Assembly (NCBI GenBank): GCA_963692945.1
Contig: OY843585.1
Coordinates: 1,440,001 to 1,472,000, forward strand
Direction of reading: 5' to 3'
Length of the DNA: 32,000 nucleotides
Source: Bdellovibrionales bacterium
GTDB taxonomy: Bacteria > Bdellovibrionota > Bdellovibrionia > Bdellovibrionales > UBA1609
Below the pieces are notes generated by a model, which was given only the letters and a program-made list of their open reading frames with translations, was not told the origin of the DNA and did not search any database. Each line of letters starts with the position of its first letter. Within the stretch, counting starts at the first letter, position 1. A program made the translations under genes and the position numbers. Positions 2,563 through 18,077 of the stretch are shown here, piece by piece.

Positions 2563-3072
2563 TTAAAGGCAGGAAGATTTCTCGTGGATTGATATCTGAT
2601 CAGGATATGGAGTGCAATCATATTTTGATTTTGAGAGTTGGCTTTTAAAAAAATCTACAATATGTATATGCTTTACTGATCTTGATTGGATTGACCTTGC
2701 CATAGTAAAAGGGCTTTCACCGATATTATTTTTCTCACAAATATTCAATCCTTTTTCAACAAACAATGAAATGATATCAAAATGTCCACCCAAAGTAGCC
2801 CAATGAAGTCCAGTGTCTCCAGAATTATTTGTAATTCTAATATTGGCTCCTTCTTTAATAAGCAATTCAACCATTCCTAAATATCCACTTGAACTTGCAT
2901 AATGAAGAGCTGTATTACCCCCTTTATCTTTTAAATTAGGATTCATTCCTTTTTTCAAAAGAGCAGATAATTTTTCTACATTTCCATAGATAGCCGCTTT
3001 GTGAAATTCCTCAGCTATTACCGAAAAACTCGGTAGAAAAAAACAAAACAAAATTAAAAATTTTTTCTTCAT
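2563..3072 (-). CDS. Exported ankyrin-repeat protein (about 3 repeats)
   Basis: Ankyrin repeat consensus GNTALHYASSSGYLGMVELLIKEGANI and GDTGLHWATLGGHFDIISLFVEKGLNI. N-terminal signal peptide MKKKFLILFCFFLPSFSVIA. Confidence 0.85.
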   Translation of the reverse strand: MKKKFLILFCFFLPSFSVIAEEFHKAAIYGNVEKLSALLKKGMNPNLKDKGGNTALHYASSSGYLGMVELLIKEGANIRITNNSGDTGLHWATLGGHFDIISLFVEKGLNICEKNNIGESPFTMARSIQSRSVKHIHIVDFFKSQLSKSKYDCTPYPDQISIHEKSSCL

Positions 3073-4344: not shown

Positions 4345-5556
4345 CTAACAATCTAAAATGGAAAATTCTTTTCCCAACCAAAACACTCGTCCCTTTCCAT
4401 CTGACAAAGTACAGTTGATTCTTTCACGAACGGCTTCGCCACTGGAGTTTGTAAAAGGGCGATTCAAAATGATATCCGCTTGATAGGAATTTTGTTTTTT
4501 TATTGTGATTTCACCATTGGAAGCAAAACAATTTAAACGACTTAAATCACGACTGCTGTTCAAATGGGAAACTATATCTGGTTGAACAGTCAAAGAAAAT
4601 TTCTTTTGACCAGCACTTGTACAAAAAGCCAAGTTCTTCGGAAAAAAACTTTGAAAAGGAAAATGACGACTATTCATTTTAGCACGAAATAGATCACTGA
4701 CTTTTCCATATCTCATATTCAAAGCAAAACGAGGTAAAGCAAACCGATTTGAAGCACATCCTACAGGACCAGATTGAGTGGTAAAAGCGGCTTTAAAATG
4801 AAAGTTTTTTCCACCTATGTTCCAACGATAATTTTTCAGCTCTTGAATAAAAGCATCGTTGGTTTCTCCATAAGGATAAGCAAAATATTGAGAAAGTCTT
4901 CCTGTTTCTTTGTACAAACGAAGGACAGATGTTTTGACATCCTTTTTTCTTTGAGACGAATTCATATTTCGAATCATATAGGCATGAGCATGACCGTGAG
5001 CCTCTAATGAAGCCCAACCCGATCGCTTGATTTCTCTGAGTTGATTCCATGTCATATAATCCCTTAACTTTCTATCAATCCCCTCTGTATTGACAAACAC
5101 TGTATAAGGAATTTTATTTTGAACAAACAAAGGATGAGCCACTTCATAAGCAGATTTATAAGCATCATCTATTGTAATGGCCAAAGTTTTTTTAGGAAAG
5201 CCTGTCCCATAAATATGGGCATTCACAATACGACTCAAAGGAACAATATCAAAACCTTTTGAGCGAAAAAAACCAATATGCTGTTTCAGCATTTCCCTTG
5301 TGACACTGGTGCTGGAATACTTACCATCAAAACGGTGATACATAAGGACTAAAGCATTGTGATGGTTCAAAGATAGATCAGAGGGATTGCATTTTTTAAA
5401 AGAACTGATTTGCCTGTAGGATGTAGTGGAAGACAAATCACTTGTTTGTTTATTCAATGAACGACAATGTGAAAAAGTTAAAACCAAAATCAGCAGAGAC
5501 AACAGAGAAAAAAAATACTGAATAAAATTTTTTATCTTTGAATTTAAAATAAACAT
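4345..5556 (-). CDS. Exported polysaccharide deacetylase (NodB homology domain) with an uncharacterised C-terminal domain
   Basis: NodB-type motifs LVLMYHRF, ITIDDAYKSAYEVAHPLF, TVFVNT and MTWNQLREI...LEAHGHAH. Hydrophobic N-terminus LLSLLILVLTFSHC. Confidence 0.8.
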   Translation of the reverse strand: MFILNSKIKNFIQYFFSLLSLLILVLTFSHCRSLNKQTSDLSSTTSYRQISSFKKCNPSDLSLNHHNALVLMYHRFDGKYSSTSVTREMLKQHIGFFRSKGFDIVPLSRIVNAHIYGTGFPKKTLAITIDDAYKSAYEVAHPLFVQNKIPYTVFVNTEGIDRKLRDYMTWNQLREIKRSGWASLEAHGHAHAYMIRNMNSSQRKKDVKTSVLRLYKETGRLSQYFAYPYGETNDAFIQELKNYRWNIGGKNFHFKAAFTTQSGPVGCASNRFALPRFALNMRYGKVSDLFRAKMNSRHFPFQSFFPKNLAFCTSAGQKKFSLTVQPDIVSHLNSSRDLSRLNCFASNGEITIKKQNSYQADIILNRPFTNSSGEAVRERINCTLSDGKGRVFWLGKEFSILDC

Positions 5557-5572
5557 AACTTAACCAGTTTTG

Positions 5573-6619
5573 TTATTTTTTGGCCACTCTTATATCACCA
5601 ACACTACATTTTCTACTCATAGAACAAACTTCACTCAATACACCTTGAATCTCTTGGGTGTACATTTTATTTTCTGCATAAAAATCAATATGACGGTGCA
5701 AAACATCAGCTTGCTGGCACTCATTATAATTTTTGCGCTGACTGTATAATTTAAAACGTCGAGACCTGTAATCTTGATATCCCCTTAAATGACTTCCATT
5801 AAATCGGGAAAAGTATTCATCTATAGAACCTCTATAATTATTAAATTTCAAAAGACACCGATTGAAACTTCTTTTTGCCCTTCTACAATTTGGATAGTTA
5901 TCCATACTGGAAGGATCGCGGAAAGCCACCTGTAAACCTAATATATTATTTTCTTCCTCAGCCAAGGAAGACTTTCCCCAGTTAGACTCTAAAGCCGCTT
6001 GAGCCAAAATCAACGAGTTAGGAATTTTTTGAACCTTAAGAGTAATCTCTTTTTGACAAGACGATTCAGTTAATTTGCTTTTTTTCACTCGATCTTCTTT
6101 AACAAAAAAACAACTGGTTGGCGGACCATTTTTTTCAAAATGCTTACGAGCCATTTGCTTCATCTTCTGCAAAACTTCTTCTGGAGGAGTGTAACGAGTA
6201 GAAGGAACATAATATTCCTTCATTTTATTATTCCTCAACAAACGATATTTAATCATTTTCTCAGTCATTTGAAGATGATCTTCAGTGGAAAGACTTTCTG
6301 GATTCTCTTTCATAGCTTTTATATAGTTTAGCATAAATTTTTGGTTTGCTTCTATCTCTTGGTTATTGAGATCTATCTCTTTTCTCACATCGCAAACAAA
6401 CTTTTCTTTATGGTTTTTACTTCCTTTTTCCAAAACTTTATGAATGTTAACAACAGAGAGTAATAATGGAGAATCATTACAGTCTTTTTGCTTCTCAAAA
6501 TTTCGAATCGCATGTCTAGATTGAAGATTCTTTGTCATTTCCTCCGTACTCCAACCTGCACTTCCATAAGCCCAAGTACAATAGAAAGGAATCAGTAGGA
6601 AAAGTCTATAAAACCACAT
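5573..6619 (-). CDS. Exported glucosaminidase-domain protein (FlgJ C-terminal / Bax-like peptidoglycan hydrolase)
   Basis: LILAQAALESNWGKSSLAEEENNILGLQ matches the mannosyl-glycoprotein endo-beta-N-acetylglucosaminidase domain signature. Signal peptide MWFYRLFLLIPFYCTWAYG. Confidence 0.7.
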   Translation of the reverse strand: MWFYRLFLLIPFYCTWAYGSAGWSTEEMTKNLQSRHAIRNFEKQKDCNDSPLLLSVVNIHKVLEKGSKNHKEKFVCDVRKEIDLNNQEIEANQKFMLNYIKAMKENPESLSTEDHLQMTEKMIKYRLLRNNKMKEYYVPSTRYTPPEEVLQKMKQMARKHFEKNGPPTSCFFVKEDRVKKSKLTESSCQKEITLKVQKIPNSLILAQAALESNWGKSSLAEEENNILGLQVAFRDPSSMDNYPNCRRAKRSFNRCLLKFNNYRGSIDEYFSRFNGSHLRGYQDYRSRRFKLYSQRKNYNECQQADVLHRHIDFYAENKMYTQEIQGVLSEVCSMSRKCSVGDIRVAKK

Positions 6620-8571: not shown

Positions 8572-8669
8572 TTTATTTTTCTTCTTTACAACTAATAAAA
8601 TAAAGTTTAAAAACCCTACATAACATACATAAAATATAACAAATTTATATTATATATGTGAAGACTAAT

Positions 8670-9026
8670 ATGGACTATAGATCAGTTGAAATTACAATTA
8701 AAGGCATAAAATATGGCTTAATTAAAAAATTATCCATTAAAAATGAAGATTTCCAAGAAATAATTAAAACCCTACAAAACACACATAGAAAAGATAATAA
8801 AAAATTTTCAGAGGCTTTAAATAACATAATGAATTCTTTAAATATCAAAACAGTTGATCTTGCTAATCAGATGCATTCAAATCCAAAATCTTTACGTCCT
8901 CAAATAAGTCGTTGGAAAAACGGACATAACTTTCCTTCAAATTATAATCAAAAACAATTAATCGAAATTTTTAAAAATTTATGTTATAGTAGTGGTAAGG
9001 AGAAAGAAACTTTACAACAGGATTAA
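8670..9026 (+). CDS. Helix-turn-helix (XRE-like) DNA-binding protein
   Basis: IKTVDLANQMHSNPKSLRPQISRWKNGHNFPS fits the XRE HTH pattern (...is.we.G...Ps). I chose the ATG at 8670 over the track's GTG at 8658. Confidence 0.5.
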   Translation: MDYRSVEITIKGIKYGLIKKLSIKNEDFQEIIKTLQNTHRKDNKKFSEALNNIMNSLNIKTVDLANQMHSNPKSLRPQISRWKNGHNFPSNYNQKQLIEIFKNLCYSSGKEKETLQQD

Positions 9027-9030
9027 GCAT

Positions 9031-9672
9031 ATGGACTTATTGAATACACAACTAGAAACAGCACAAAATTCTCAAACACTTGTCAAAAAAATCCAACTCT
9101 CTAATAAAAAAAGAGAACATTTTATTAAAAGAAATTACAAGAAAACAGATTGGAAAGACAGAATTCAGTATAGCACTGTATGCTACCAAGATTCAAATGA
9201 TAAAAATATAGTTCATGGATTGATTAACATTAGTGCAACGGGGGAAACGATTTTTCTTGAAAAAGCTAGAGATATAAATTTTAAAATTGTTTTGAAAGGT
9301 AATGAAACCTCGATTTATTATGAAGCATCAAAAATCTTGCTTAATCAAGTAACTGTGGAATTTATTTTTAAAACTATTGAAAACGCTATCTTAGAATTAG
9401 CTAAAAAAGCTATTAGTGAATCTAAAAAAACAGAAAATAATCACAAAACTACTGGTACCAGTAAAGAAGAGTCTGAAGAAGAGTCTAAAAAAAATACTCA
9501 ATATAGTACATCAAAATGGAAAGGTTATTATTTCTATAAACAACCTATGGATGATAGTGGAAGAAAAAGATTTAAAGAAGCAATTGCAGATGGTATTTTA
9601 TCCCAACAAATGTTTTCTGTGTGTAAAAAAAATAATTTTAATTTAAGAAAGTTTCCAAAAGATTTACAATAG
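9031..9672 (+). CDS. Hypothetical protein (213 aa) with a Lys/Glu-rich linker; probably co-transcribed with the HTH gene
   Basis: The ATG at 9031 lies 4 nt after the HTH gene's stop. I recognise no family. Confidence 0.45.
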   Translation: MDLLNTQLETAQNSQTLVKKIQLSNKKREHFIKRNYKKTDWKDRIQYSTVCYQDSNDKNIVHGLINISATGETIFLEKARDINFKIVLKGNETSIYYEASKILLNQVTVEFIFKTIENAILELAKKAISESKKTENNHKTTGTSKEESEEESKKNTQYSTSKWKGYYFYKQPMDDSGRKRFKEAIADGILSQQMFSVCKKNNFNLRKFPKDLQ

Positions 9673-9731
9673 AAAAAAATTTTCTGTTCATAAAAACTTC
9701 TGATTGGAAGCAAATTATTTTTAAGATATAT

Positions 9732-9915
9732 TCAATTTACAAAAGTTTGTTTAATATAAAACTTATGTTTATCCCCTGCAAATCTAAAAATCACTAAAAA
9801 ATAATCAATTTTTGTTTCTAACTCCGGCCAATCTATAGCTTCTATTTCACTTAATCCTTCCAGAAAACATTCCAGGGTGAACAACACTTCCAGGTTTAAA
9901 AGGGTTATATTTCAT
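9732..9915 (-). pseudogene. N-terminal stub of an AAA/STAND-type NTPase gene (frameshifted and truncated)
   Basis: The reverse-strand ATG at 9913-9915 gives MKYNPFKPGSVVHPGMFSGRIK*. NPFxPGxxVxxPxxFxGR is the typical N-terminus of AAA_16/Arch_ATPase-type proteins. An alternate frame continues EGLSEIEAIDWPELE... and stops at 9732. Confidence 0.3.
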
Positions 9916-10312
9916 AAAAATATCCTACTATAAATGGGTAATAATCGGTAATAATGATTGAGAAAACCTCATAAGAAACCTTTTAAATAAGGTTTTTTTA
10001 AAATTTTAGGCTAAAAAATAAAGTAAAGTATTTTATCTCATCTAATAAACTATAATTTATTGATAAAAGAAGATTGTAAGATTTATGGAATGCCTGCACC
10101 TAAAATATGGGGATGTTTTTATAGAAACCCTGTGTTTCAAAATGAGATAAATAGTAGATAGTGTTCAAAATCTCAACAATATGCTCTAAAAACCCTAATT
10201 GAGGGTTCTTGCTACATATCAATTAAATCCTATAAAAGTAAAGGTACAAGACTTTATTCATAAAAGTTAATTATTTTATCAATAACTCTTAATTTTATAT
10301 TACAATTATTGA

Positions 10313-11020
10313 ATGAGCATAAGAGTGGAAAAAAGGATTTTTCTAAATAGTATGGGGGGGGGCTTAATAGGTGCCTTAGTAGCATCTAGTATTATAGGGA
10401 TATCAGCTCTATCTTTTCAAAGACATCTCGTAGCTTCTACTCAAAATTTATATAGGTTAAGGCTAAAGAGCTCCGAGCAATTAATTACAGCAAATTTAAA
10501 AATAGCAGCTTTAAGTGTGTCAGCTTTAAAGCAAACTAAGAGTCATGAACTTCTCGTTAGACGATGCACTACCCCTTCAGGAACTTGTCAAGATAGTAGA
10601 AAAGTTAAAGTGGGTTGGTATGATGGATTAGACAAAAAAATATCTGATTCAGAGTCAGATTCAGGTCGAGGAATTCTTTATAACGATCAAGGTGAAATCT
10701 GCACAGATAGTCCTGTTTCTTTTGGTAAGAAATGCCCTTTTAAAGTCGCTTCTGAGATGTATTTTTATTGTTCTAGTGGTGCGAGTTGTTCTGAGGCAGA
10801 AAGTGCTAAAATTAAATTTTTTATTCTTAAGCATTCTTCCGTTTCAAAATATCTTAAAGACAGGGATTTTGAAGTTACAATTCCTAGAGTTACTCCAGAA
10901 GTAATAACAACTGAGAAAACAGTAGTTAAGCAAGGTACAACTAGAACCATAACCAGAACAGTTAATACATTTAGACCCCGTGCAGACGGAGACGGAGACG
11001 GAGACGGAGGTGGAAGATGA
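10313..11020 (+). CDS. Minor-pilin-like protein with a degenerate prepilin N-terminus, Cys-rich core and C-terminal (GD)n-GGG tail
   Basis: N-terminal hydrophobic helix GGGLIGALVASSIIGISALSF, with no Glu at +5. Paralogous to the next gene: shared CP(F/I)(K/R)V(A/V)S.M...C...SC core, TRTI motif and Gly/Asp tail. The stop overlaps the next start (ATGA, 11017-11020). Confidence 0.6.
   Translation: MSIRVEKRIFLNSMGGGLIGALVASSIIGISALSFQRHLVASTQNLYRLRLKSSEQLITANLKIAALSVSALKQTKSHELLVRRCTTPSGTCQDSRKVKVGWYDGLDKKISDSESDSGRGILYNDQGEICTDSPVSFGKKCPFKVASEMYFYCSSGASCSEAESAKIKFFILKHSSVSKYLKDRDFEVTIPRVTPEVITTEKTVVKQGTTRTITRTVNTFRPRADGDGDGDGGGR
10354..10362 (+). repeat. G9 homopolymer tract in the 5' coding region (codons 14-17, ATG GGG GGG GGC)
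   Basis: Read directly: tatggggggg ggctta at 10351-10366. It is the only G or C run longer than 5 that I found in the window. Confidence 0.95.
10985..11008 (+). repeat. Hexanucleotide simple sequence repeat, (GACGGA)x4, encoding DGDGDGDG
   Basis: gacgga at 10985, 10991, 10997 and 11003, at the 3' end of CDS 10313..11020. Confidence 0.95.
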
Positions 11021-11802
11021 TGATCGTTTTTAATAAAAAAGGTATAGGCTTGATCGAATTTGTTATTAGCTCATCTGTAGGTCTTATTGGGTTACTCATA
11101 GTATCTCAAGTTTTTATCAGTTCAGTAAAACACACTAAGAAAACAAAGATTATTCTTACTATGCAAAATATCAATTCAATTATTACAACTTCTTTATTTG
11201 ACTTAGATTTTTTTAAACCAGCAAGTGATAATAAAAACTATATCAAAAACAATGTAGTGTATAGATGTTTTGGAAAACCAACTGTTTGTAATTTTAATCA
11301 AGGTTCTTCGAAAAAAATATATCCACTTAAAATATTTGATATAAATGGAAACCAGTGGTCAGGGGTAGATTCAGAACCTAAGTATTTTGATGAATATGGC
11401 TCTTCTTGCCTAGAGCTATCTTCTAACTGCCCGATTCGAGTTGTATCAACAATGAAAGTAGGCTGTCCTGAATCTTCTATAAGCTGTTCTGGCATGAAAA
11501 TAAATGAGGTTTTCATAACTTACTCTATATCAGCACCACCTCAGTATTCTAAATTAAACATCAAAAATTCCGTAATATCTAAGACTATCACTGTACCTGT
11601 GTCTTTAAAAAGTACGGCAACTTCTGAACGAATCTATAAGGAAGTCATTACAGAAAATATTATTAACACATTGGTCACCAGAACTATTAATTACGGAAGA
11701 AACCCAAGTAGTAGCGGCGGCGACGGAGATGGTGGTGGAAATAGTGGTGGAAATAGTGGTGGATGTGATGGTGAAGCCCCTGATGGATGCTCACCAAGAT
11801 GA
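11017..11802 (+). CDS. Minor pilin / pseudopilin-like protein with a prepilin cleavage-methylation motif and a Gly-rich acidic tail
   Basis: NKKG|IGLIEFVISSSVGLIGLLIV has Gly at -1 and Glu at +5. The C-terminal tail is SSSGGDGDGGGNSGGNSGGCDGEAPDGC. ATGA overlap with the next gene at 11799-11802. Confidence 0.7.
   Translation: MMIVFNKKGIGLIEFVISSSVGLIGLLIVSQVFISSVKHTKKTKIILTMQNINSIITTSLFDLDFFKPASDNKNYIKNNVVYRCFGKPTVCNFNQGSSKKIYPLKIFDINGNQWSGVDSEPKYFDEYGSSCLELSSNCPIRVVSTMKVGCPESSISCSGMKINEVFITYSISAPPQYSKLNIKNSVISKTITVPVSLKSTATSERIYKEVITENIINTLVTRTINYGRNPSSSGGDGDGGGNSGGNSGGCDGEAPDGCSPR
11734..11763 (+). repeat. 12-nt simple sequence repeat, (GGTGGAAATAGT)x2.5, encoding GGNSGGNSGG
   Basis: ggtggaaatagt at 11734 and 11746, then ggtgga at 11758. 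Confidence 0.9.
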
Positions 11803-12803
11803 AAAAAGAATTGTTTTTTAATAAAAATAGAAACATAAAATTCATTTTACTATCTGTTTTTTTTATTTTTTTATTTGGATGTATAAAAAAATTTAATAAA
11901 GAAAAATCTAAACCTATAGTTAAGAATTTAGACACCCCTAAAAAATCTGATGAACAAAAAATAATATCTCCAGGAGATATTTATTATGTAGAAACTTCTG
12001 GTTTTTTTCAAAGAGGTATTACTTTTCAAAAAACAGATAGTCATAGTGTATCTTTATTCTCTAAAGGACCCTTGAGTTCAGTCTTTGTAAGTGACAGTCA
12101 AACAAGTTTATCTGTTCGTATTAAAAAAACATTAACTGCGTCAATTCAAAAGGAAGGCATAGGTGGAGTCATTGGTTCTTTAAAAGATAATAATAGACAA
12201 GGAGCTACTATTTACTTAGTAACTATGAGCAATGGAAAAAAACCTGCTTTAATCCTAGTTCCAACAAATTCGAAATTAACTCTGCCAACAGGATACTCTT
12301 TATTAAGTGAACCTCTATGGTATATTTCTATCGGTGGAAATACTAGCAAAAGATATATATCTGATTTTAGAGACTTCGGGGATGGAGTAAATCATTATTA
12401 TATGAATAGTATATATAGCGAAAGACATAAAGTGCCATTAAGTGCATTTAATGAACCAACAGAAATTAATAGGATATTTAGTAAAGCTCCTTATTATGCT
12501 CGTTATGTAATTTTAGATATTACAGTTGTTTTAAAGAATCAAAGAGGTAAAGTGGGGTATTTTGACATCATTGTAGATCCAGGAAGAAGACCTACATTAG
12601 TTGAAAGATTTATGCTTGCTAAATCTTTAGATCAGAGAATTTATAAAAGATCCATTAAAGTTCCTATTATGAAAAAAGAAGAAGGATATGGTAAAGGCAT
12701 TGCTACTATTAAAGCACATGCAAGAAATTTAACATCATCAAAGGGTTCAGATGCTTATGTTTATATTTATGTAAAAGGTTGGAAAAAAGTTAACCACTTT
12801 TAG
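11799..12803 (+). CDS. Lipoprotein of unknown function
   Basis: MKKELFFNKNRNIKFILLSVFFIFLFGC carries a lipobox (LFGC). I chose the start at 11799 because of the ATGA overlap with the upstream stop. I recognise no family. Confidence 0.6.
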   Translation: MKKELFFNKNRNIKFILLSVFFIFLFGCIKKFNKEKSKPIVKNLDTPKKSDEQKIISPGDIYYVETSGFFQRGITFQKTDSHSVSLFSKGPLSSVFVSDSQTSLSVRIKKTLTASIQKEGIGGVIGSLKDNNRQGATIYLVTMSNGKKPALILVPTNSKLTLPTGYSLLSEPLWYISIGGNTSKRYISDFRDFGDGVNHYYMNSIYSERHKVPLSAFNEPTEINRIFSKAPYYARYVILDITVVLKNQRGKVGYFDIIVDPGRRPTLVERFMLAKSLDQRIYKRSIKVPIMKKEEGYGKGIATIKAHARNLTSSKGSDAYVYIYVKGWKKVNHF

Positions 12804-12811
12804 TTATACTT

Positions 12812-13405
12812 ATGAAAAGATCTACTGTTTATTTTTCTCTTATCTATTTCGCTGTTTCCATAATTTATATTTATTTTTCCTATTTTCATAAGATTTTTTT
12901 TTCAGAAGATGTTGTTTCTTACCAGAGTATTGAAAAATTTAATATTATAAATAAATCTTTTAAAGATGCTAGCTTTGAAAATATTAATTTAAAAAGATGT
13001 CAAATATCTCAAAGTCAATTTTTACGGATAAATATGAAATCAAAAGAGATGTATAGTTGTTTTATATTTAACAGTTTATTTAAAAAAACTGATCTCCGAT
13101 TTCTTGATTTTAGAGAATCTATGGTTGCCGGATCCGTCTTTTTAAACACTAATATGGAAGGTATTACAACAAGAGGCTCAACGATTACTCATTCTACATT
13201 CCAAGATGTCATTCTTAAAAAAGCTAACTTAAAAGGAACAGCCATTACGTATACTTTATTTAAAAATGTAGACCTAAGAGGTGCTGACTTAAGCTCTTCT
13301 ATTTTAACAGGATCTGAATTTAAAAATGTACTTATAAATAAAGAGACTAATCTTCCTTTTTCTTATGAGACAGCTAAAAAATACGGATTTATTTTTAAGG
13401 ACTAA
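12812..13405 (+). CDS. Membrane-anchored pentapeptide-repeat protein
   Basis: N-terminal TM segment VYFSLIYFAVSIIYIYFSYF, then A(D/N)LxX-type repeats such as ANLKGTAITYTLFKNVDLRGADLSSSILTGSEFKNV. Confidence 0.75.
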   Translation: MKRSTVYFSLIYFAVSIIYIYFSYFHKIFFSEDVVSYQSIEKFNIINKSFKDASFENINLKRCQISQSQFLRINMKSKEMYSCFIFNSLFKKTDLRFLDFRESMVAGSVFLNTNMEGITTRGSTITHSTFQDVILKKANLKGTAITYTLFKNVDLRGADLSSSILTGSEFKNVLINKETNLPFSYETAKKYGFIFKD

Positions 13406-13409
13406 AGAT

Positions 13410-14624
13410 GTGATTAAAGCGAAAAAATATTTTGTGAATCAAATTAAAGAAATACAATCTTCAAAATCTTTAATTTATTTTGGAAGTTTTTTATCTTTAA
13501 CTCATCTTGTGACTTTCCAATTCTGGAATCACTTATCTTTCTATTACTTTAATACATCTAATCATCCGAGTAATATTTGTTGGAATTTTTTTTCTTCTTG
13601 TGATGTTTTAAGTTTCTCATCTGTTTTATTTTCAAAAATAGCTATCTTTATCTACCTTATTATATCTCTACTATCTATCTATTTTTTCATAATTAAACAA
13701 GTAAAATATGGATATCTTACTCTTTGTTTTTTGGTCTTTTTTAAATATATAGTTTTACTTATGAGTTTTTATCATATGGGAAATTATCACTATATGCCTT
13801 TCATTGTCTCTTTTCTATATCTATTTTTCCCTTTAAAAAGAATCTCTATTCCTGTCATGATATCTTTGTTTTATATTTTTGCTGGTTTTTTAAAATTAAA
13901 TAATTTAGAGTGGCTTACAGGAGGGAGTCTTTGGAAAATAGAAGGATGGAATCCTTACTTTATTACATTTTTAACAACTTCTGTTGTTTTTCTGGAAATT
14001 TTTATATCACCTATTCTTCTCTTAAAACATAAAATAAAATACATTGCTTTTTTCTTTTTCTGTTTATTTCATTTAGCTTCTTTTTACTGGGTGGGTTATT
14101 TTTATCCTATTAATTGCTTTGCTCTTCTTTCTATCTTTCCTCTTATTTGGTTTTTGGATAAATCTCATCTAAACTTAATCGAGAAAACCATCAGAAATAG
14201 TATCCCTAAGTCCTTGTCTATTATTTTTATTGTCTTTATAGTTGCTCAAGTTGTTCCTCGTTTTTATAAAGGAGATGAGGCTGTTACTGGTCAAGGTCGA
14301 ACTTGGTTTTTAAATATGTATGATGCGAGAGTATCTTGCCATTCCTATATGAAGGTAAGGTATAAAAATCGTACAGAGGAATTTTCAAGAGATTCAACAT
14401 GGTTATCTATAAGAATTCAATGTGATCCATATGTTTATTATTCAGATGCACAAAAAATTTGTAAGTGGGCGGAGAAAAATCCTGATTTTATAGATATAGA
14501 TTTTCATCTATCAACCAAAAGAAGGTCTGATATGGAGTGGACTTATCTAGTGAAATTAAAAAATTTCTGTTCACAAGATATAAAATATAATTTTTTAAAA
14601 GGAAATGCATGGATCAATTTCTAA
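13410..14624 (+). CDS. Polytopic membrane protein, HTTM / vitamin K-dependent gamma-carboxylase-like domain (tentative)
   Basis: About 8-10 hydrophobic segments. LFYIFAGFLKLNNLEWLTGGSLW resembles the HTTM signature (human GGCX ...YFYAGIAKLDADWVEGYSM..., recalled from memory). I prefer the GTG start at 13410, which lies 8 nt after AAGGA and 5 nt after the upstream stop. The track ATG at 13365 would overlap the previous gene by 41 nt. Confidence 0.5.
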   Translation: MIKAKKYFVNQIKEIQSSKSLIYFGSFLSLTHLVTFQFWNHLSFYYFNTSNHPSNICWNFFSSCDVLSFSSVLFSKIAIFIYLIISLLSIYFFIIKQVKYGYLTLCFLVFFKYIVLLMSFYHMGNYHYMPFIVSFLYLFFPLKRISIPVMISLFYIFAGFLKLNNLEWLTGGSLWKIEGWNPYFITFLTTSVVFLEIFISPILLLKHKIKYIAFFFFCLFHLASFYWVGYFYPINCFALLSIFPLIWFLDKSHLNLIEKTIRNSIPKSLSIIFIVFIVAQVVPRFYKGDEAVTGQGRTWFLNMYDARVSCHSYMKVRYKNRTEEFSRDSTWLSIRIQCDPYVYYSDAQKICKWAEKNPDFIDIDFHLSTKRRSDMEWTYLVKLKNFCSQDIKYNFLKGNAWINF

Positions 14625-15922
14625 AGAAAATAAATATTGTAAAATATATCTATCTGATTTACTTCTTGCTTTTTGTTTTTTTTATAATAAATATTTCCTA
14701 TACTATTCCTACTATTTTATTCTTTTCAAAAACAATAAATGATAATTACATCCCTCCCAAGTTGATTTATGGATCTGATTCTTTTACAGAAGAATCTATA
14801 CCTAGTATAAAGATAGTAAATTCGACCTATAGGGGTGACTATAAAAGAAATGGAATTTATCAAAATATTATTCCAGTAACGGGTTTAAAAATTTTATGGA
14901 AAAGTTTTACTATAAATAATATTATTCATGGAGCTTCTAAGGCTTCACCAGCTATTGATGATTCAGGGATTTATATAGGCGGTGATGATGGTTGGTTTTA
15001 TGCTTTTAATCATGATGGTTCATTGAAATGGAAATATTACACTTTTTATAATCACAGAGGCATTCATTCAACAGCGATGCTTGGGGACGACTATGTTTGG
15101 TTCGGTTCTTATAATGGAAGATTTTATTGTTTAGATAAAAATAATGGTAAAATTATTTGGAGTTTAAAATTGGCTGATGCAATTGGTTCTTCCCCTCTTT
15201 TTTATAAAGGATTTATTTACTTATCTGTTGAGACTAATTTCTTAGATGGTTATGTTGTTAAGATAAATGCACAAACTGGAAAGGTTACTTGGAGATCTCC
15301 TTGGCTTGGAGAACAGATACATTCTTCTGTTACTTTAAATCCTAAAAATAAACTTCTTTATGTAGGGGTAAATAATGGCATTTTATACGCTATTAATATG
15401 GATAATGGCTATCCTTTTTGGTCTTATAGTGCTGAAAAACCTATTAAAGGAACTGCACTTGTTGATATTGAGCAAGATAGAATTTATTTTTCAGGCTGGA
15501 ATAAGAGATTAACAAGCTTACATAGTGGAACAGGGCAAGTGGCATGGGAGACGTATATTGGATTTCCTTCTCAATCAAGCCCTACAGATATTCCTACTAA
15601 GGATGTTTTGGTTCTTTCTTCTCATAGATCAGAAGGACTTATGTATGGAATCCAAAAAAGCACAGGAAAAATTCTTTGGAAAAAGAAAATAACAAATAAA
15701 AATATAGGCATACATAGCGGGTTTAGTGCTCAAAATAAAAAAGGAAATTGGCTTTATTATGGAACATGTTCTAAAAATTTATTTTGTGTTTTAGACCCAT
15801 TAACAGGTAAAATTATTGGAGAAGTTAAAATTACTGGAGATCTTACAGGATCTCCTGTTCCGTATAAATCATTTATTTATCTAAGTTTAAATGATGGTGG
15901 GCTTTTAAAATTAGGGAGATAG
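14609..15922 (+). CDS. Membrane-anchored PQQ-like (BamB-type) beta-propeller repeat protein
   Basis: Repeated G(K/Q)(I/V)xW ... blades: DGSLKWKY, NGKIIWSL, TGKVTWRS, GYPFWSY, TGQVAWET, TGKILWKK. N-terminal TM segment IYLIYFLLFVFFIINISY. An AAGGA RBS lies 5 nt upstream. It overlaps the previous gene by 16 nt. Confidence 0.75.
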   Translation: MDQFLKKINIVKYIYLIYFLLFVFFIINISYTIPTILFFSKTINDNYIPPKLIYGSDSFTEESIPSIKIVNSTYRGDYKRNGIYQNIIPVTGLKILWKSFTINNIIHGASKASPAIDDSGIYIGGDDGWFYAFNHDGSLKWKYYTFYNHRGIHSTAMLGDDYVWFGSYNGRFYCLDKNNGKIIWSLKLADAIGSSPLFYKGFIYLSVETNFLDGYVVKINAQTGKVTWRSPWLGEQIHSSVTLNPKNKLLYVGVNNGILYAINMDNGYPFWSYSAEKPIKGTALVDIEQDRIYFSGWNKRLTSLHSGTGQVAWETYIGFPSQSSPTDIPTKDVLVLSSHRSEGLMYGIQKSTGKILWKKKITNKNIGIHSGFSAQNKKGNWLYYGTCSKNLFCVLDPLTGKIIGEVKITGDLTGSPVPYKSFIYLSLNDGGLLKLGR

Positions 15923-15924
15923 TT

Positions 15925-16347
15925 ATGATTTATAAAAAAGAAATAGAAAAAAGAAAAGGGTTTTCCCTTATAGAGTTAATGGTAGTTGTTGCTATTATGG
16001 GTATACTTAGCTCAGTAGCTAGTATTCACTATAAAAAGTATTTGGATCGCTCTAAGGCTGATAGATTAAGAAATGAGGTTTCGCTTATCAAAACCGCTTA
16101 TCAAACTTGTAGTATTTTATTGTCTTTAGACGATTGTAATACTTTAGAGAAATTAGATATATCAATTGACACACAAGAGTACACATATAGAAGTGCTAGT
16201 GGATCTAACCATATTTGCTTTTCATTAACAAATAAGGCAGGTCAAGAAGGTTGTTACAGCTCTTATAATACAAAACTATCAACCATAGATGAGATTTTAG
16301 ATACAACAGATTCGACTGGAAAATGCTCAGGAAATAGATGCCTGTAG
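15925..16347 (+). CDS. Type IV pilin (prepilin-type N-terminal cleavage/methylation domain)
   Basis: KRKG|FSLIELMVVVAIMGILSSVA is the canonical motif (Phe at +1, Glu at +5). C-terminal Cys pair CSGNRC. A GGGAGA RBS lies upstream. Confidence 0.9.
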   Translation: MIYKKEIEKRKGFSLIELMVVVAIMGILSSVASIHYKKYLDRSKADRLRNEVSLIKTAYQTCSILLSLDDCNTLEKLDISIDTQEYTYRSASGSNHICFSLTNKAGQEGCYSSYNTKLSTIDEILDTTDSTGKCSGNRCL

Positions 16348-16758
16348 ATGATTTGTTCAAGAGATCTTGTTTTCCAATCTATCAATCCTTAGAAATTTAA
16401 AAATCTTTTTAGTCCAGCTCTTTTTTTTTAGATGCTTTTTCTGATTCAAATTTATTCTTTTTTTCAGACTTAATCTCTATTTCTTTGAGACTCATTTTCT
16501 TTTTATTTAAAACCTGATTAATACTTTTTAAAATTCTTTTTCATCACAAAGAGGATTTATTTTTTGTGTGGAGAGGTTAAAAATGAGTTCAAAAACAATA
16601 TCCAGAGTTAGTGTCGGAAGGTTCAAGATAAAAAGAAAACCTTAAGGCTAAACTATCAAGGTCTTATTCCTGCTATTAAAATTTTACAAAAATATAGGGT
16701 CTATTTGTGGTTAGGATTGGTTATTACGAGAGATATTTATTCCATGATTTTTTAGAAA

Positions 16759-17796
16759 TCATTGAATAAAAAATCTTTTAAAAGACCTTAGAGTTTTATC
16801 AAACCAATTCCCAATTTCTCTTGAAGTTTTAGCATTGTAAGAGCGAAGTAACTTTATAAGTTCTTCATTTCCTTCATCTTCGGCAATATCCAAAACGGTC
16901 ATTCCATTTCCATTTTTTATATTAGGATCAGCACCAGCTTCCAGTAGAGGTTTAAAGATATTTTCTATCTCTTCTTCAGCTTCATCTTCATCAATTATAA
17001 AAGAATACATTGCTACAAATAAAGGTGTGTCATCTTCATTATTTTTAATATTCAAATCAGCCTTTTTTTGAATTAAAATATTTAGAAAATTTGGATTCAT
17101 TTCATTTGCAACTGCATAGTGAAGCGGAGTGAAACCCGCTTTATCTTTTGCATTTATTTGAACTCCATTCTTGAAAAAAAACTCTACGACGAGTAAATCT
17201 GTATCAAAATTCCGATCATATCTAGAGTGAGAAATCACATCGTTAAGAACAGAAGTATCTACTTGAGATCCATTCATAACAAGCACTTCCATAAATTCTA
17301 AATTTCCTTTAAGACCAGCTGCACCTAAAGGTGTAACTCCTTCATTATTTTTTTCATTAACATTCAACCCTTGACTTATAAGAAATTCAGCAATCTCTTT
17401 ATTGTCTGTTTTATGAAGAAATGTTTCTCCATCTCTATTTTTAAAATTTATGTCAGCTCCTCTATCTAGAAGAAACTTAACCATTTCTAAATTTTCTGCA
17501 TAAAATAAAGGGGAACTTCCTCTTCCTGTATACCCACCATCTCTTATATCTATGTCAACCCCATTTTTAAGATCTCTTTCTACACAATCAAATCTATTTT
17601 CTGAAACAGCACTATGTAGAGAATGACTAGATAAGCCATCTACAAACATTACGATAATACCATTCTCTTTAATTGCTCCAGAGTAAGAACCTTTTGGACA
17701 AGCAGAAGGGTCATCTTCGACATACTCATAACCGAAAACACCATCAACACAAGACACAAATAACAAGCAAGATATAAAAAATAAAAATTTCAGCAC
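16759..17796 (-). CDS. Ankyrin-repeat lipoprotein/exported protein (about 6-7 repeats)
   Basis: Multiple ANK units, for example GSSPLFYAENLEMVKFLLDRGADINFKN, GETFLHKT, GVTPLGAAGLKGNLEFMEVLVMNG and GFTPLHYAVANE. N-terminus MLKFLFFISCLLFVSC is lipobox-like. The apparent start is GTG at 17794-17796, and there is no in-frame ATG at or near this N-terminus. Confidence 0.85.
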   Translation of the reverse strand: MLKFLFFISCLLFVSCVDGVFGYEYVEDDPSACPKGSYSGAIKENGIIVMFVDGLSSHSLHSAVSENRFDCVERDLKNGVDIDIRDGGYTGRGSSPLFYAENLEMVKFLLDRGADINFKNRDGETFLHKTDNKEIAEFLISQGLNVNEKNNEGVTPLGAAGLKGNLEFMEVLVMNGSQVDTSVLNDVISHSRYDRNFDTDLLVVEFFFKNGVQINAKDKAGFTPLHYAVANEMNPNFLNILIQKKADLNIKNNEDDTPLFVAMYSFIIDEDEAEEEIENIFKPLLEAGADPNIKNGNGMTVLDIAEDEGNEELIKLLRSYNAKTSREIGNWFDKTLRSFKRFFIQ

Positions 17797-17916: not shown

Positions 17917-17992
17917 TGGCGTTCCCTACGGGATTTGAACCCGTGTTTTCACCGTGAAAGGGTGGTGTCCTAGGCCTCTAGACGAAGGGAAC
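17917..17992 (-). tRNA. tRNA-Glu (anticodon UUC), CCA encoded
   Basis: The reverse complement GTTCCCTTCGTCTAGAGGCCTAGGACACCACCCTTTCACGGTGAAAACACGGGTTCAAATCCCGTAGGGAACGCCA folds as a cloverleaf. Acceptor stem is GTTCCCT/AGGGAAC, anticodon loop CTTTCAC, T-loop TTCAAAT. Confidence 0.95.
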
Positions 17993-18001
17993 ATTTGTAA
18001 A

Positions 18002-18077
18002 TGGTGACCTGCCTAGGACTCGAACCTAGGACCCTCTCCTTAAAAGGGAGATGCTCTACCAACTGAGCTAGCAGATC
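18002..18077 (-). tRNA. tRNA-Lys (anticodon UUU), CCA encoded
   Basis: The reverse complement GATCTGCTAGCTCAGTTGGTAGAGCATCTCCCTTTTAAGGAGAGGGTCCTAGGTTCGAGTCCTAGGCAGGTCACCA folds as a cloverleaf. Acceptor stem is GATCTGC/GCAGGTC (one G-U pair), anticodon loop CTTTTAA. Confidence 0.95.

What the first reader, a model, noticed from the sequence alone, without database searches (positions are those of the whole stretch)
10313..16347. Seven-gene, tightly coupled pilin-like operon with non-canonical partners (pentapeptide-repeat, HTTM-like and PQQ-propeller proteins)
Seven + strand genes start at 10313, 11017, 11799, 12812, ~13410, 14609 and 15925. They are packed with ATGA start/stop overlaps (11017-11020, 11799-11802), a 16-nt overlap (14609-14624) and gaps of 9 nt or less.

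The last gene is a textbook type IV pilin (KG|FSLIELMVVVAIMGIL). The second has a valid cleavage/methylation motif (KKG|IGLIEFV, Glu at +5). The first is its paralogue with a degenerate motif.

The order (minor pilins, then a large beta-propeller, then a final pilin) echoes the fimU-pilVWXY1Y2E logic, in which PilY1 carries a C-terminal propeller. Here, however, the propeller is a membrane-anchored PQQ/BamB-like protein. Three further proteins are intercalated: a lipoprotein, a TM-anchored pentapeptide-repeat protein and an HTTM-like polytopic membrane protein.

The window contains no assembly ATPase, platform protein, secretin or prepilin peptidase. I do not know of a described pilus or pseudopilus module with this composition. 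It could be a specialised tip/priming complex with its own maturation machinery.
Basis: partly seen in the sequence, partly recalled or inferred. Interest (0 to 1): 0.7.

Follow-up and report, generated by a model that had tools for sequence, protein, structure and literature searches.

The report
Carboxylase-like enzyme module beside Asp-tailed pilins
A tightly packed seven-gene operon joins pilin-like proteins that end in glycine/aspartate-rich tails to a conserved membrane module built around a bacterial look-alike of the human vitamin-K-dependent carboxylase, a recurrent and undescribed pairing that suggests the enzyme processes those tails.

Summary
Seven co-oriented, overlapping or near-abutting genes lie at 10313-16347. 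Six of the seven protein calls are confirmed. "HTTM-like" fails by sequence (Pfam E=3.5) but holds by fold: the g5 model (pLDDT 88) matches only human vitamin-K-dependent gamma-carboxylase (GGCX; 12 hits, E about 1e-6). The invariant Lys177 aligns with catalytic Lys218.

The seven-gene set is not conserved as a unit. The recurrent core is g4-g5-g6: pentapeptide-repeat protein, GGCX-fold enzyme and PQQ-type propeller. It occurs across Bdellovibrionota and some Myxococcota, and g5 and g6 are fused in some genomes. This argues against a PilY1-like tip role for the propeller.

Pilin-like genes flank the core in about half of the loci, in varying order. In all fetched DNA, every protein with a Gly/Asp-run C-terminal tail (13 of 469 ORFs, 8 lineages) lies within 3 kb of g5. 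g1 and g2 are among them.

At one Bdellovibrio site, strains with the triad have Asp-rich pilin tails. Strains without it there have Ser/Asn tails, against phylogeny.

Best reading, inferred and not shown: a periplasm-facing enzyme complex acts on the Gly/Asp tails of dedicated pilin-like clients. I found no description in the literature searched.

The parts
9673..10312 (.). 640-bp AT-rich intergenic region upstream of g1; presumed promoter region of the operon
   Evidence: No ORF of 60 aa or more. The promoter scan was not above chance. No Rfam match. The promoter role is inferred only.
10313..11020 (+). g1: Cys-rich pilin-like protein (235 aa) with a degenerate class III signal (NSMG|GGLIGALVASS, Gly at +5). 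It ends in a Gly/Asp tail.
   Evidence: A profile built only from non-window globular domains hits g1 at 6e-10. Six invariant Cys are shared with g2 and the Bdellovibrio homologues. The Gly(+5) variant recurs in L001 and L003.
10979..11017 (+). g1 C-terminal tail RADGDGDGDGGGR
   Evidence: Translation. It meets the G/D-run tail definition.
11017..11802 (+). g2: Cys-rich pilin-like protein (261 aa) with NKKG|IGLIEFV (Gly -1, Glu +5), paralogous to g1. It ends in a Gly/Asp/Cys tail.
   Evidence: Pfam N_methyl E=0.16, below cut-off. The non-window profile hits it at 8e-11. Homologues P0171-P0176 carry PF07963 or pass TIGR02532, and NCBI names P0172 'PilW family protein'. The AF2 model is poor (pLDDT 52) but shows a helix at 10-61 followed by beta strands.
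11707..11799 (+). g2 C-terminal tail SSSGGDGDGGGNSGGNSGGCDGEAPDGCSPR
   Evidence: Translation. The DGDGGG core aligns with the tails of L007 (280 aa) and L015 (332 aa).
11799..12803 (+). g3: predicted lipoprotein (334 aa from ATG 11799; lipobox FLFG|C) of an unnamed family
   Evidence: No Pfam or NCBIfam hit. Homologues are found only in the Bdellovibrio pilin blocks, two per block and each following a pilin gene.
12812..13405 (+). g4: pentapeptide-repeat protein (197 aa) with an N-terminal membrane anchor; the repeat domain is predicted to be periplasmic
   Evidence: Pentapeptide_4 60.5 bits against a cut-off of 38. Hydrophobic segment at 4-24. The L007 orthologue has a cleavable signal peptide. 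It sits directly upstream of g5 in 17 loci.
13410..14624 (+). g5: polytopic membrane protein with the fold of vitamin-K-dependent gamma-carboxylase (HTTM superfamily) and a Cys-rich C-terminal periplasmic domain. The alternative start is ATG 13365, which is used for residue numbering here.
   Evidence: AF2 pLDDT 88, pTM 0.87. The 12 best Foldseek PDB hits are all human GGCX (E 1.7e-6 to 7.7e-5, TM 0.61-0.66); the next hit has E 0.18. Pfam HTTM scores only E 3.5. The family has 873 representatives at 50% clustering.
13869..13925 (+). g5 motif FYIFAGFLKLNNLEWLTGG, containing the invariant Lys177 (codon 13893-13895)
   Evidence: hhalign's only local match to the PDB-verified GGCX 50-324 places Lys177 on GGCX Lys218. 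E improves from 0.0067 to 0.0005 with a deeper alignment. The residue is invariant or nearly so.
14609..15922 (+). g6: PQQ-type (BamB-like) beta-propeller (437 aa) with one N-terminal membrane anchor; the obligate partner of g5
   Evidence: Pfam and NCBIfam. It is adjacent to g5 in 24 of 26 loci where this could be tested. g5-g6 fusions exist: P0033, P0049 and P0081, about 800 aa.
15925..16347 (+). g7: canonical type IV pilin or pseudopilin (140 aa; KRKG|FSLIELMVVVAIMG)
   Evidence: N_methyl 2.6e-9 and TIGR02532 above cut-off. It scores below the cut-offs of the GspG, PpdD and PilA equivalogs. It is not a constant member of the module elsewhere.

Best explanation
The locus is a composite of an enzyme module and its probable clients.

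The module is g4-g5-g6. It consists of a polytopic inner-membrane enzyme with the vitamin-K-dependent gamma-carboxylase (HTTM) fold (g5), an obligate membrane-anchored PQQ-type beta-propeller partner (g6) and, in Bdellovibrionota, a periplasmic pentapeptide-repeat protein (g4). The conserved Lys/His motifs of g5 and its Cys-rich C-terminal domain face the periplasm.

The clients are g1 and g2. They are disulfide-rich pilin-like proteins whose C-termini carry (Gly-Asp)n tails. They are accompanied by the lipoprotein g3 and the ordinary pilin g7.

Proposed mechanism, by analogy with GGCX acting processively on Glu-rich segments of docked substrates: after membrane insertion, the pilin-like proteins expose their tails at the periplasmic face. 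The propeller and/or the C-terminal domain of g5 docks them. g5 uses a membrane quinol and O2 to modify the tail, most simply at its Asp residues. The matured subunits are then taken up by a type IV pilus or type II-like machinery encoded elsewhere.

Shown: gene packing, domain and fold identities, conservation and fusion of g5-g6, recurrent adjacency of pilin-like genes, exclusive proximity of G/D tails to g5, and covariation of tail Asp content with local triad presence.

Inferred: a physical complex, the tail as substrate, the chemistry, the cofactor, and fibre incorporation.
For: (1) Fold. Only GGCX structures match the confident g5 model. The single local profile alignment puts the invariant Lys177 on catalytic Lys218. 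The GNYHYMP and FH motifs are 90% or more conserved.

(2) The triad is syntenic across 20+ loci of Bdellovibrionota and Kofleriaceae. The 16-nt g5/g6 overlap is conserved, and g5-g6 fusions exist.

(3) Prepilin-like genes directly flank the triad in 14 of 30 distinct loci and lie about 4 kb away in a fifteenth (L004). They sit upstream, downstream or convergent.

(4) 13 of 469 ORFs have a G/D-run tail. All 13 lie within 3 kb of g5, in 8 lineages. They include non-pilin secreted proteins in high-GC soil contigs.

(5) At one Bdellovibrio chromosomal site, triad-positive strains (L007, L008, L025) keep a near-identical Asp-rich tail although the pilin bodies are only 73% identical. Triad-negative strains (L021, L023) have bodies 80% identical to L025 but Ser/Asn tails with only 1-2 Asp.

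(6) The predicted topology places the g5 motifs, the g4 and g6 domains and the pilin tails all in the periplasm (positive-inside reasoning).
Against: - No biochemical evidence exists, and the chemistry is unknown.
- Sequence-level HTTM membership fails (Pfam E 3.5; hhalign probability only 6-32% over 29 columns).
- The tails are Asp-rich, not Glu-rich like GGCX substrates.
- The pilin block exists without an adjacent triad (L021, L023). The triad exists without nearby pilins or G/D tails (L009, L011, L017, L020).
- L001 and L003 replace the propeller with spermine-synthase-like proteins, and their pilin-like neighbours lack G/D tails.
- The closest relative, L004, lacks g1-g3 nearby.
- The triad-negative Bdellovibrio genomes could carry a triad elsewhere; this could not be checked.
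- Only about 20 kb per locus was examined, and many loci are related to one another.
Confidence: 0.5

Rival explanations
1. First reader's model. The seven proteins form a specialised pilus tip or priming complex analogous to FimU-PilVWX-PilY1. The propeller plays the role of PilY1, and the other proteins are structural accessories.
For: - Pilin-like proteins (one lacking Glu+5, as tip pseudopilins such as GspK do; my own knowledge) sit next to a large beta-propeller and a final pilin.
- NCBI names a homologue 'PilW family protein'.
- There is precedent for non-pilin accessory proteins in minor-pilin/PilY1 clusters of Myxococcus (PMC8833165, listed; abstract only).
Against: - No PilY1, PilV, PilW or PilX model hits.
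- The propeller has an inner-membrane anchor. It is translationally coupled or fused to the polytopic enzyme, which does not fit a protein that must leave the membrane on a fibre tip.
- The g5-g6 pair occurs without pilins (L016-L018, L030, L032).
- The pilin block occurs without the propeller (L021, L023).
Confidence: 0.12
2. The triad is a non-catalytic sorting, docking or anchoring device. It recognises the Gly/Asp tail as a C-terminal signal and directs or tethers the bearer. The logic is comparable to sortase- or exosortase-type systems. No covalent modification of Asp is involved.
For: - The tail is a portable C-terminal module on unrelated secreted proteins next to g5: pilin-like proteins, a lipoprotein and an InlB-B-repeat/DUF4215 protein.
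- Propellers and pentapeptide beta-helices are typical binding scaffolds.
- A conserved Cys lies 2-4 residues from the end in many tails: GSCSM, DGCSPR, GGCGG.
Against: - The GGCX catalytic Lys and neighbouring motifs are invariant across a very divergent family. This argues for retained chemistry.
- No transmembrane segment follows the tail, unlike known C-terminal sorting signals (my own knowledge).
Confidence: 0.2
3. There are two independent units that merely neighbour each other. One is a quinone-linked envelope enzyme module (g4-g6) with an unrelated housekeeping role. The other is a variable pilin island (g1-g3, g7). Their tight packing here is a local accident.
For: - The seven-gene arrangement is unique to this genome among those seen.
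- The closest relative, L004, has unrelated genes upstream of g4, including a TIR-domain gene.
- Each unit exists without the other somewhere.
Against: - Adjacency recurs in about half of the loci with shuffled order and strand. All G/D tails lie within 3 kb of g5.
- Tail composition covaries with triad presence against phylogeny.
- There are overlapping stop/start codons across the g3-g4 and g6-g7 boundaries' neighbours, and gaps of 2-8 nt at those boundaries.
Confidence: 0.15

Closest known systems
Vitamin-K-dependent gamma-glutamyl carboxylase (GGCX; Pfam HTTM, PF05090)
   Same: - Overall polytopic fold plus a lumenal/periplasmic C-terminal domain (Foldseek probability 1.0, TM 0.61-0.66).
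- The AG-x-x-K-L...W..G motif, with Lys177 aligned to the catalytic base Lys218.
- Candidate substrates carry a run of acidic residues.
   Different: - 12% sequence identity, and it fails the Pfam HTTM threshold.
- About 400 aa rather than 758.
- It has an obligate beta-propeller partner or fusion, and a pentapeptide-repeat neighbour.
- The candidate substrate tails are C-terminal Gly/Asp rather than propeptide-linked, Glu-rich N-terminal Gla domains.
- Cofactor and reaction are unknown.
Type IV pilus minor-pilin/PilY1 priming cluster (fimU-pilVWXY1Y2E) and type II secretion pseudopilins (GspH-K)
   Same: - Several pilin-like genes in one operon, one of them without Glu+5.
- A beta-propeller protein and a terminal pilin gene.
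- The assembly machinery is encoded elsewhere.
   Different: - No model hit to PilV, PilW, PilX, PilY1 or GspH-K above cut-off.
- Only two Cys-rich paralogues plus one pilin.
- The propeller is membrane-anchored and belongs with the enzyme.
- Gly/Asp tails are not a feature of known minor pilins, to my knowledge.
BamB (YfgL) and other non-catalytic PQQ_2 propellers
   Same: PQQ_2 repeat beta-propeller located in the periplasm.
   Different: - TIGR03300 scores 93.6 bits against a cut-off of 285.
- It has an N-terminal transmembrane anchor instead of a BamB lipobox.
- It is encoded or fused with a GGCX-fold enzyme rather than being part of the BAM complex.
C-terminal sorting-signal systems (sortase/LPXTG, exosortase/PEP-CTERM, rhombosortase/GlyGly-CTERM)
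   Same: A polytopic membrane protein is genomically linked to diverse secreted proteins that share a short, compositionally distinctive C-terminal module.
   Different: - No transmembrane helix or basic cluster follows the tail.
- The membrane protein has a carboxylase-like fold, not a protease or transpeptidase fold.
- The resemblance is one of logic only, recalled from my own knowledge.

Membership tests
HTTM / vitamin-K-dependent gamma-carboxylase superfamily (g5) | Match to Pfam PF05090 above the gathering score (27.7 bits) | tested here: not met
   g5 scores 7.6 bits, E 3.5. The best family member, P0049, scores 16.5 bits, E 0.0068. No PDB hit was found by sequence profile.
HTTM / vitamin-K-dependent gamma-carboxylase superfamily (g5) | GGCX-like three-dimensional fold | tested here: met
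HTTM / vitamin-K-dependent gamma-carboxylase superfamily (g5) | Catalytic base lysine (human Lys218) within the conserved AGxxKL...W motif | tested here: met
   hhalign aligns g5 FYIFAGFLKLNNLEW with GGCX VYFIAGVKKLDADW, placing Lys177 on Lys218 (E 0.0067, then 0.0005). The residue is invariant in 25 sequences and 90% or more conserved in 100. The alignment is short and of low probability (6-32%). The role of Lys218 is from my own knowledge.
HTTM / vitamin-K-dependent gamma-carboxylase superfamily (g5) | Quinol/O2/CO2-dependent carboxylation (or epoxidation) activity | not testable with these tools
   This requires biochemistry.
Type IV pilin-like proteins (class III signal peptide) | N-terminal motif with Gly at -1, Glu at +5 and a hydrophobic helix of about 20 residues, matching PF07963 / TIGR02532 | tested here: met
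   g7 scores 36.7 and 36.2 bits, above both cut-offs.
Type IV pilin-like proteins (class III signal peptide) | The same motif in g2 and g1 | tested here: inconclusive
   g2 has KKG|IGLIEFV by eye but scores 12 bits against a cut-off of 21.2. g1 has Gly at -1 but Gly at +5. Globular-domain homologues with canonical motifs pass TIGR02532, so the family is pilin-like. Cleavage of g1 is doubtful.
Type IV pilin-like proteins (class III signal peptide) | Prepilin peptidase and assembly machinery present in the genome | not testable with these tools
   None is present in the 32-kb window. The rest of the genome was not available.
Type IV pilin-like proteins (class III signal peptide) | Pilin alpha/beta-roll fold of the globular domain (g2) | tested here: inconclusive
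   The model has pLDDT 52, with a long N-terminal helix and beta strands. The fold search gave no significant hit.
FimU-PilVWX-PilY1 priming complex | A set of four core minor pilins (GspH/I/J/K-like) plus PilY1 (PF05567) | tested here: not met
   No such model matches g1-g3 or g6 at E of 1 or below. Only weak N-terminal-helix matches appear in homologues.
BamB (g6) | TIGR03300 / PRK11138 equivalog score and a lipoprotein signal | tested here: not met
   g6 scores 93.6 against 285.2 bits and 68.5 against 423 bits. Its N-terminus is a transmembrane anchor without a lipobox.
Pentapeptide-repeat proteins (g4) | Pfam Pentapeptide_4 / Pentapeptide above gathering scores | tested here: met
   g4 scores 60.5 against 38 bits and 42 against 20.2 bits. 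It is below the cut-offs of all named equivalogs such as Qnr, MfpA and HetL.

The most novel reading that the evidence does not exclude
g5 and its roughly 870 relatives are bacterial vitamin-K-carboxylase-type enzymes with natural protein substrates. Working with a propeller partner, they would use membrane quinol and O2 to modify, for example by beta-carboxylation, the repeated Asp residues of C-terminal (Gly-Asp)n tails on pilin-like and other surface proteins. This would create a strongly Ca2+/mineral- or surface-binding appendage on predatory-bacterial fibres. It would be the first GGCX-like post-translational modification system in bacteria and a new class of pilin modification.
Probability: 0.2. 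Interest if true: 0.92.

Novelty: new variant of a known kind. Interest (0 to 1): 0.74.

Why it matters
- The function of bacterial HTTM/GGCX-fold proteins is an open question. This locus supplies candidate natural substrates (Gly/Asp tails) and partners (propeller, pentapeptide protein), which makes the question directly testable.
- A cultured, fully sequenced strain, Bdellovibrio sp. HCB185ZH (CP178624, locus L007), carries the same module.
- For pilus biology, it points to an unrecognised maturation step for a family of disulfide-rich minor-pilin-like proteins in predatory bacteria, whose type IV pili are needed for prey invasion.
- It also defines a large unnamed protein family: 873 clusters at 50% identity.

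Tried and rejected
- Pfam and NCBIfam on g1, g3 and g5 gave nothing.
- Sequence-profile searches of the PDB with 25- and 100-sequence g5 alignments gave only chance hits: NCX_Mj E 0.04 and uL14m E 2.7.
- A word-indexed homologue search with g2 alone found only g2 itself.
- The g2 structure model was poor (pLDDT 52) and its fold search was meaningless.
- Promoter and terminator scans were at chance level. Rfam found only two tRNAs.
- The exact look-up of the window's g5 in the contig index failed, and cluster look-ups gave no names. The source organism is therefore inferred only from its relatives: all g5 homologues in the genome collection are Bdellovibrionota or Kofleriaceae.
- The metagenome scan did not cover the JGI samples holding the triad-negative Bdellovibrio contigs. 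I could not check whether those genomes carry a triad elsewhere.
- Literature searches combining HTTM with pilin or bacteria, pentapeptide with prepilin and PQQ, and carboxyaspartate found nothing relevant.
- Considered and rejected: BamB orthology (score far below cut-off), PilY1 analogy (fusion and membrane anchoring), and RTX-type GGxGxD repeats in the tails (the register does not fit, by eye).

Full report
**1. Observation**

| Junction | Arrangement |
|---|---|
| g1/g2 | ATGA overlap at 11017-11020 |
| g2/g3 | ATGA overlap at 11799-11802 |
| g3/g4 | 8-nt gap |
| g4/g5 | 4-nt gap if g5 starts at GTG 13410; 41-nt overlap if it starts at ATG 13365 |
| g5/g6 | 16-nt overlap at 14609-14624 |
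| g6/g7 | 2-nt gap |

The homologue alignment favours the GTG 13410 start.

A 640-bp intergenic region precedes g1. A convergent ankyrin-repeat gene follows g7. Consensus promoter and terminator scans are at chance level in this ~30% GC DNA. Co-transcription is therefore suggested by the packing but not shown.

The 16-nt g5/g6 overlap is also present in loci whose g5 is only 38-74% identical. This argues for conserved translational coupling.

**2. What each gene encodes**

- **g7** is a canonical type IV pilin-like protein. N_methyl scores 2.6e-9 and TIGR02532 is above cut-off. It is below the cut-offs of the GspG, PilA and PpdD equivalogs.
- **g4** is a pentapeptide-repeat protein (Pentapeptide_4 1.7e-16) behind an N-terminal hydrophobic anchor.
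- **g6** is a PQQ_2/BamB-like beta-propeller with one N-terminal transmembrane segment. It scores far below the BamB equivalog cut-off.
- **g3** has a lipoprotein signal (FLFG|C) and no family match.
- **g2** has KKG|IGLIEFV, but its N_methyl score is sub-threshold (E 0.16). **g1** has Gly at -1 and Gly at +5.
- **g5** has no Pfam or NCBIfam hit. HTTM scores E 3.5.

g1 and g2 are nevertheless members of a real pilin-like family. A profile built only from the globular domains of non-window proteins hits g1 (6e-10) and g2 (8e-11), and nothing else in the window. Six cysteines and a C-P motif are invariant. The non-window members have canonical prepilin motifs that pass TIGR02532. NCBI names one of them 'PilW family protein'.

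The window contains no pilus ATPase, platform protein, secretin or prepilin peptidase.

**3. g5 has the fold of vitamin-K-dependent gamma-carboxylase**

With 25 homologues, AlphaFold2 gave a confident model with pLDDT 88 and pTM 0.87.

Foldseek against the PDB returned twelve significant hits. All are human GGCX cryo-EM structures, with E 1.7e-6 to 7.7e-5, probability 1.0 and TM 0.61-0.66. The thirteenth hit has E 0.18.

Profile-sequence alignment against this segment found a single local match. It aligns g5 FYIFAGFLKLNNLEW with GGCX VYFIAGVKKLDADW. The E-value improved from 0.0067 (25 sequences) to 0.0005 (100 sequences).

This puts Lys177 on Lys218, the catalytic base of GGCX (the role of Lys218 is my own knowledge). 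Lys177 uses ATG-13365 numbering. It is invariant in 25 sequences and 90% or more conserved in 100. By eye, the conserved GNYHYMP and FH motifs resemble the GGCX NNHSYLY and YFHCMN segments.

The secondary-structure map and the positive-inside rule indicate that the N-terminus is cytoplasmic. They place the Lys/His motifs near the periplasmic face and the Cys-rich C-terminal domain in the periplasm. This matches the lumenal orientation of GGCX. This topology is inferred.

It fails the Pfam membership threshold.

**4. What is conserved around it**

An exhaustive profile search shows that the g5 family is large: 873 representatives at E of 1e-3 or better, and 490 at 1e-30 or better. About a dozen of the best 150 are ~780-815 aa long. 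These are g5-propeller fusions, with PQQ_2 at 1e-30 to 1e-42 in the C-terminal half.

I examined 30 distinct loci, taken from exact-protein look-ups, a species-representative genome scan and a metagenome scan.

- g6 is adjacent or fused to g5 in 24 of the 26 loci where this could be tested.
- g4 lies directly upstream of g5 in 17 loci.
- All genome hits are Bdellovibrionota (Bdellovibrio, Bdellovibrionales, Pseudobdellovibrionaceae, Oligoflexia) or Kofleriaceae.

The conserved unit is therefore g4-g5-g6, not the seven genes. The closest relative (L004, 74% identity) has the triad. It has unrelated genes upstream, including a TIR-domain gene, a pilin 4 kb away, and no downstream pilin.

**5. 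The pilin link is real but modular**

In Bdellovibrio sp. HCB185ZH (L007) the genes after the propeller run as follows:

1. A canonical prepilin of the g1/g2 family.
2. A g3-like secreted protein.
3. A second g1/g2-family prepilin ending in ...GNGRDGDGGGGGQGKDGGGDGGGAGGSCSM.
4. A g3-like lipoprotein.

These are the same gene kinds as in the window, but placed downstream of the triad instead of upstream.

Prepilin-like genes directly flank the triad in 14 of the 30 loci and lie about 4 kb away in a fifteenth (L004). Their order and strand vary. They include large degenerate forms such as KG|SAAIILSLMVSAG.

Each unit can also occur without the other.

- L016-L018, L030 and L032 have g5-g6 without pilins.
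- L021 and L023 have the four-gene pilin block at the same chromosomal site as L007 and L025, but without the triad.

**6. The Gly/Asp tail**

g1 ends in RADGDGDGDGGGR. g2 ends in SSSGGDGDGGGNSGGNSGGCDGEAPDGCSPR.

I defined a G/D-run tail as a 10-residue window within the last 35 residues that holds at least 8 Gly/Asp, of which at least 2 are Asp. Under this definition, 13 of 469 non-overlapping ORFs of 80 aa or more in all fetched DNA qualify. All 13 lie within 3 kb of g5, in eight lineages. None lies farther away, although most of the sequence does.

The bearers are diverse. They include pilin-like proteins in Bdellovibrionota. In high-GC soil contigs they include a small lipoprotein immediately upstream of g5 (L035, L036). 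Another is an InlB-B-repeat/DUF4215 protein (L031). Kofleriaceae loci have a neighbour with an Asp/His/Glu tail instead.

Tail composition tracks triad presence rather than phylogeny.

| Second pilin | Triad at this site | Body identity | Tail |
|---|---|---|---|
| L025 | present | 80% to L021/L023; 73% to L007 | nearly identical to L007; 5-6 Asp |
| L007 | present | 73% to L025 | 5-6 Asp |
| L021, L023 | absent | 80% to L025 | Ser/Asn-rich; 1-2 Asp |

Caveat: those genomes might carry a triad elsewhere. I could not check this, because the metagenome collection did not include those samples.

**7. Mechanism proposed**

I commit to the following model, at about 0.5 overall. g5-g6, with g4 in Bdellovibrionota, form a periplasm-facing inner-membrane enzyme complex. 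It acts on the Gly/Asp tails of dedicated client proteins. In this operon the clients are the pilin-like g1 and g2. The action precedes their uptake by a pilus or pseudopilus machinery encoded elsewhere. g3 and g7 are fibre-associated accessories.

My estimated confidence in each step:

| Step | Confidence |
|---|---|
| g4-g6 form one functional module | ~0.9 |
| g5 is a GGCX-fold enzyme that retains the catalytic Lys | ~0.85 |
| Functional link to G/D-tail proteins | ~0.7 |
| The tail is covalently modified | ~0.4 |
| The modification is Asp carboxylation | ~0.15-0.2 |

Nothing about chemistry, cofactor, complex formation or fibre incorporation is shown.

**8. Rivals**

- **PilY1-like tip/priming complex (0.12).** This is weakened by the membrane anchoring and fusion of the propeller, and by the absence of any PilVWXY1 signatures.
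- **Non-catalytic tail-recognition or sorting device (0.2).** This fits the portable-tail logic. It does not explain the invariant catalytic-type residues.
- **Chance adjacency of two independent units (0.15).** This is contradicted by the recurrent shuffled adjacency, the exclusive proximity of tails to g5, and the covariation.

**9. Novelty**

No Pfam or NCBIfam model covers g1, g3 or g5. Full-text searches found no paper linking HTTM/GGCX-like proteins with pilins, and none describing this gene combination.

The parts belong to known kinds: pilin-like proteins, the HTTM superfamily, a PQQ propeller and a pentapeptide-repeat protein. The module and its association with Gly/Asp-tailed clients appear to be undescribed. 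I rate it a new variant of known kinds. There is a minority chance (~0.2) that it is a categorically new bacterial post-translational modification system.

It is experimentally tractable, because a cultured strain with a complete genome carries it (L007).

Noticed in passing
L001 2663-8166; L003 7271-12647: In the subclade whose g5 is 54-57% identical, the propeller is replaced by spermine-synthase-like proteins (Pfam Spermine_synth, weak) together with a polytopic membrane protein. A 65-72 aa ORF retaining only the g6 N-terminal anchor (MDKFLKNINILK...) still overlaps the g5 stop by 16 nt. The neighbouring pilin-like proteins there lack Gly/Asp tails.
   Followed up: partly
window 4345-6619 (- strand) and L003 13560-15985: A glucosaminidase and polysaccharide-deacetylase gene pair flanks the cluster in both the window and L003. 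The chromosomal neighbourhood is therefore shared with that relative, although the cluster content differs.
   Followed up: no
window 2563-3072 and 16759-17796 (- strand): There are two ankyrin-repeat proteins in a ~30% GC window, from a contig of 1.56 Mb. This hints at a reduced, possibly host- or prey-associated lifestyle for the source organism.
   Followed up: no
L004 3174-3836: In the closest relative, a ThsB-type TIR-domain gene and small unknown ORFs sit between a pilin gene and g4. This looks like an inserted defence-type islet.
   Followed up: no
window 11785-11799 (g2 end); L007 14862-14876; L015 8770-8782; L003 7236-7250: Many tails, including Asp-poor ones in triad-negative strains, keep a Cys 2-4 residues from the C-terminus (DGCSPR, GSCSM, GGCGG, SVCSM, GSCGKP). 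Its significance is unexplained; it could be a disulfide or an attachment site.
   Followed up: no
L016 12674-14122; L032 12669-14135 (- strand): In Kofleriaceae loci, a 482-488 aa protein 1.4 kb from g5 ends in an extreme Asp/His/Glu tail (...DDHDDHDDHDDHDDYDEDD). This may be a lineage-specific counterpart of the Gly/Asp tail.
   Followed up: partly
window 8658-9672: Two overlapping small ORFs (122 and 226 aa) lie upstream of the 640-bp intergenic region. One has a weak DUF2199 match. Parts of their sequence look like a helix-turn-helix regulator by eye. L004 has an HTH_3 gene upstream of its pilin.
   Followed up: no
window 17917-18077 (- strand): tRNA-Glu(TTC) and tRNA-Lys(TTT) lie between the ankyrin gene and the EF-G gene. 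There is no sign of an integration scar next to the operon.
   Followed up: no
L002 4001-8730 (- strand), 12758-17735; L005 12680-17778; L010 15087-20295; L014 5015-9656: In small-genome relatives, the triad is followed by a pair of very large proteins (470-545 aa and 1055-1184 aa). They have degenerate prepilin-like N-termini (KG|SAAIILSLMVSAG) and lack Glu+5. Some have Gly/Asp/Cys-rich ends. L002 has a second such pair on the opposite strand upstream.
   Followed up: partly
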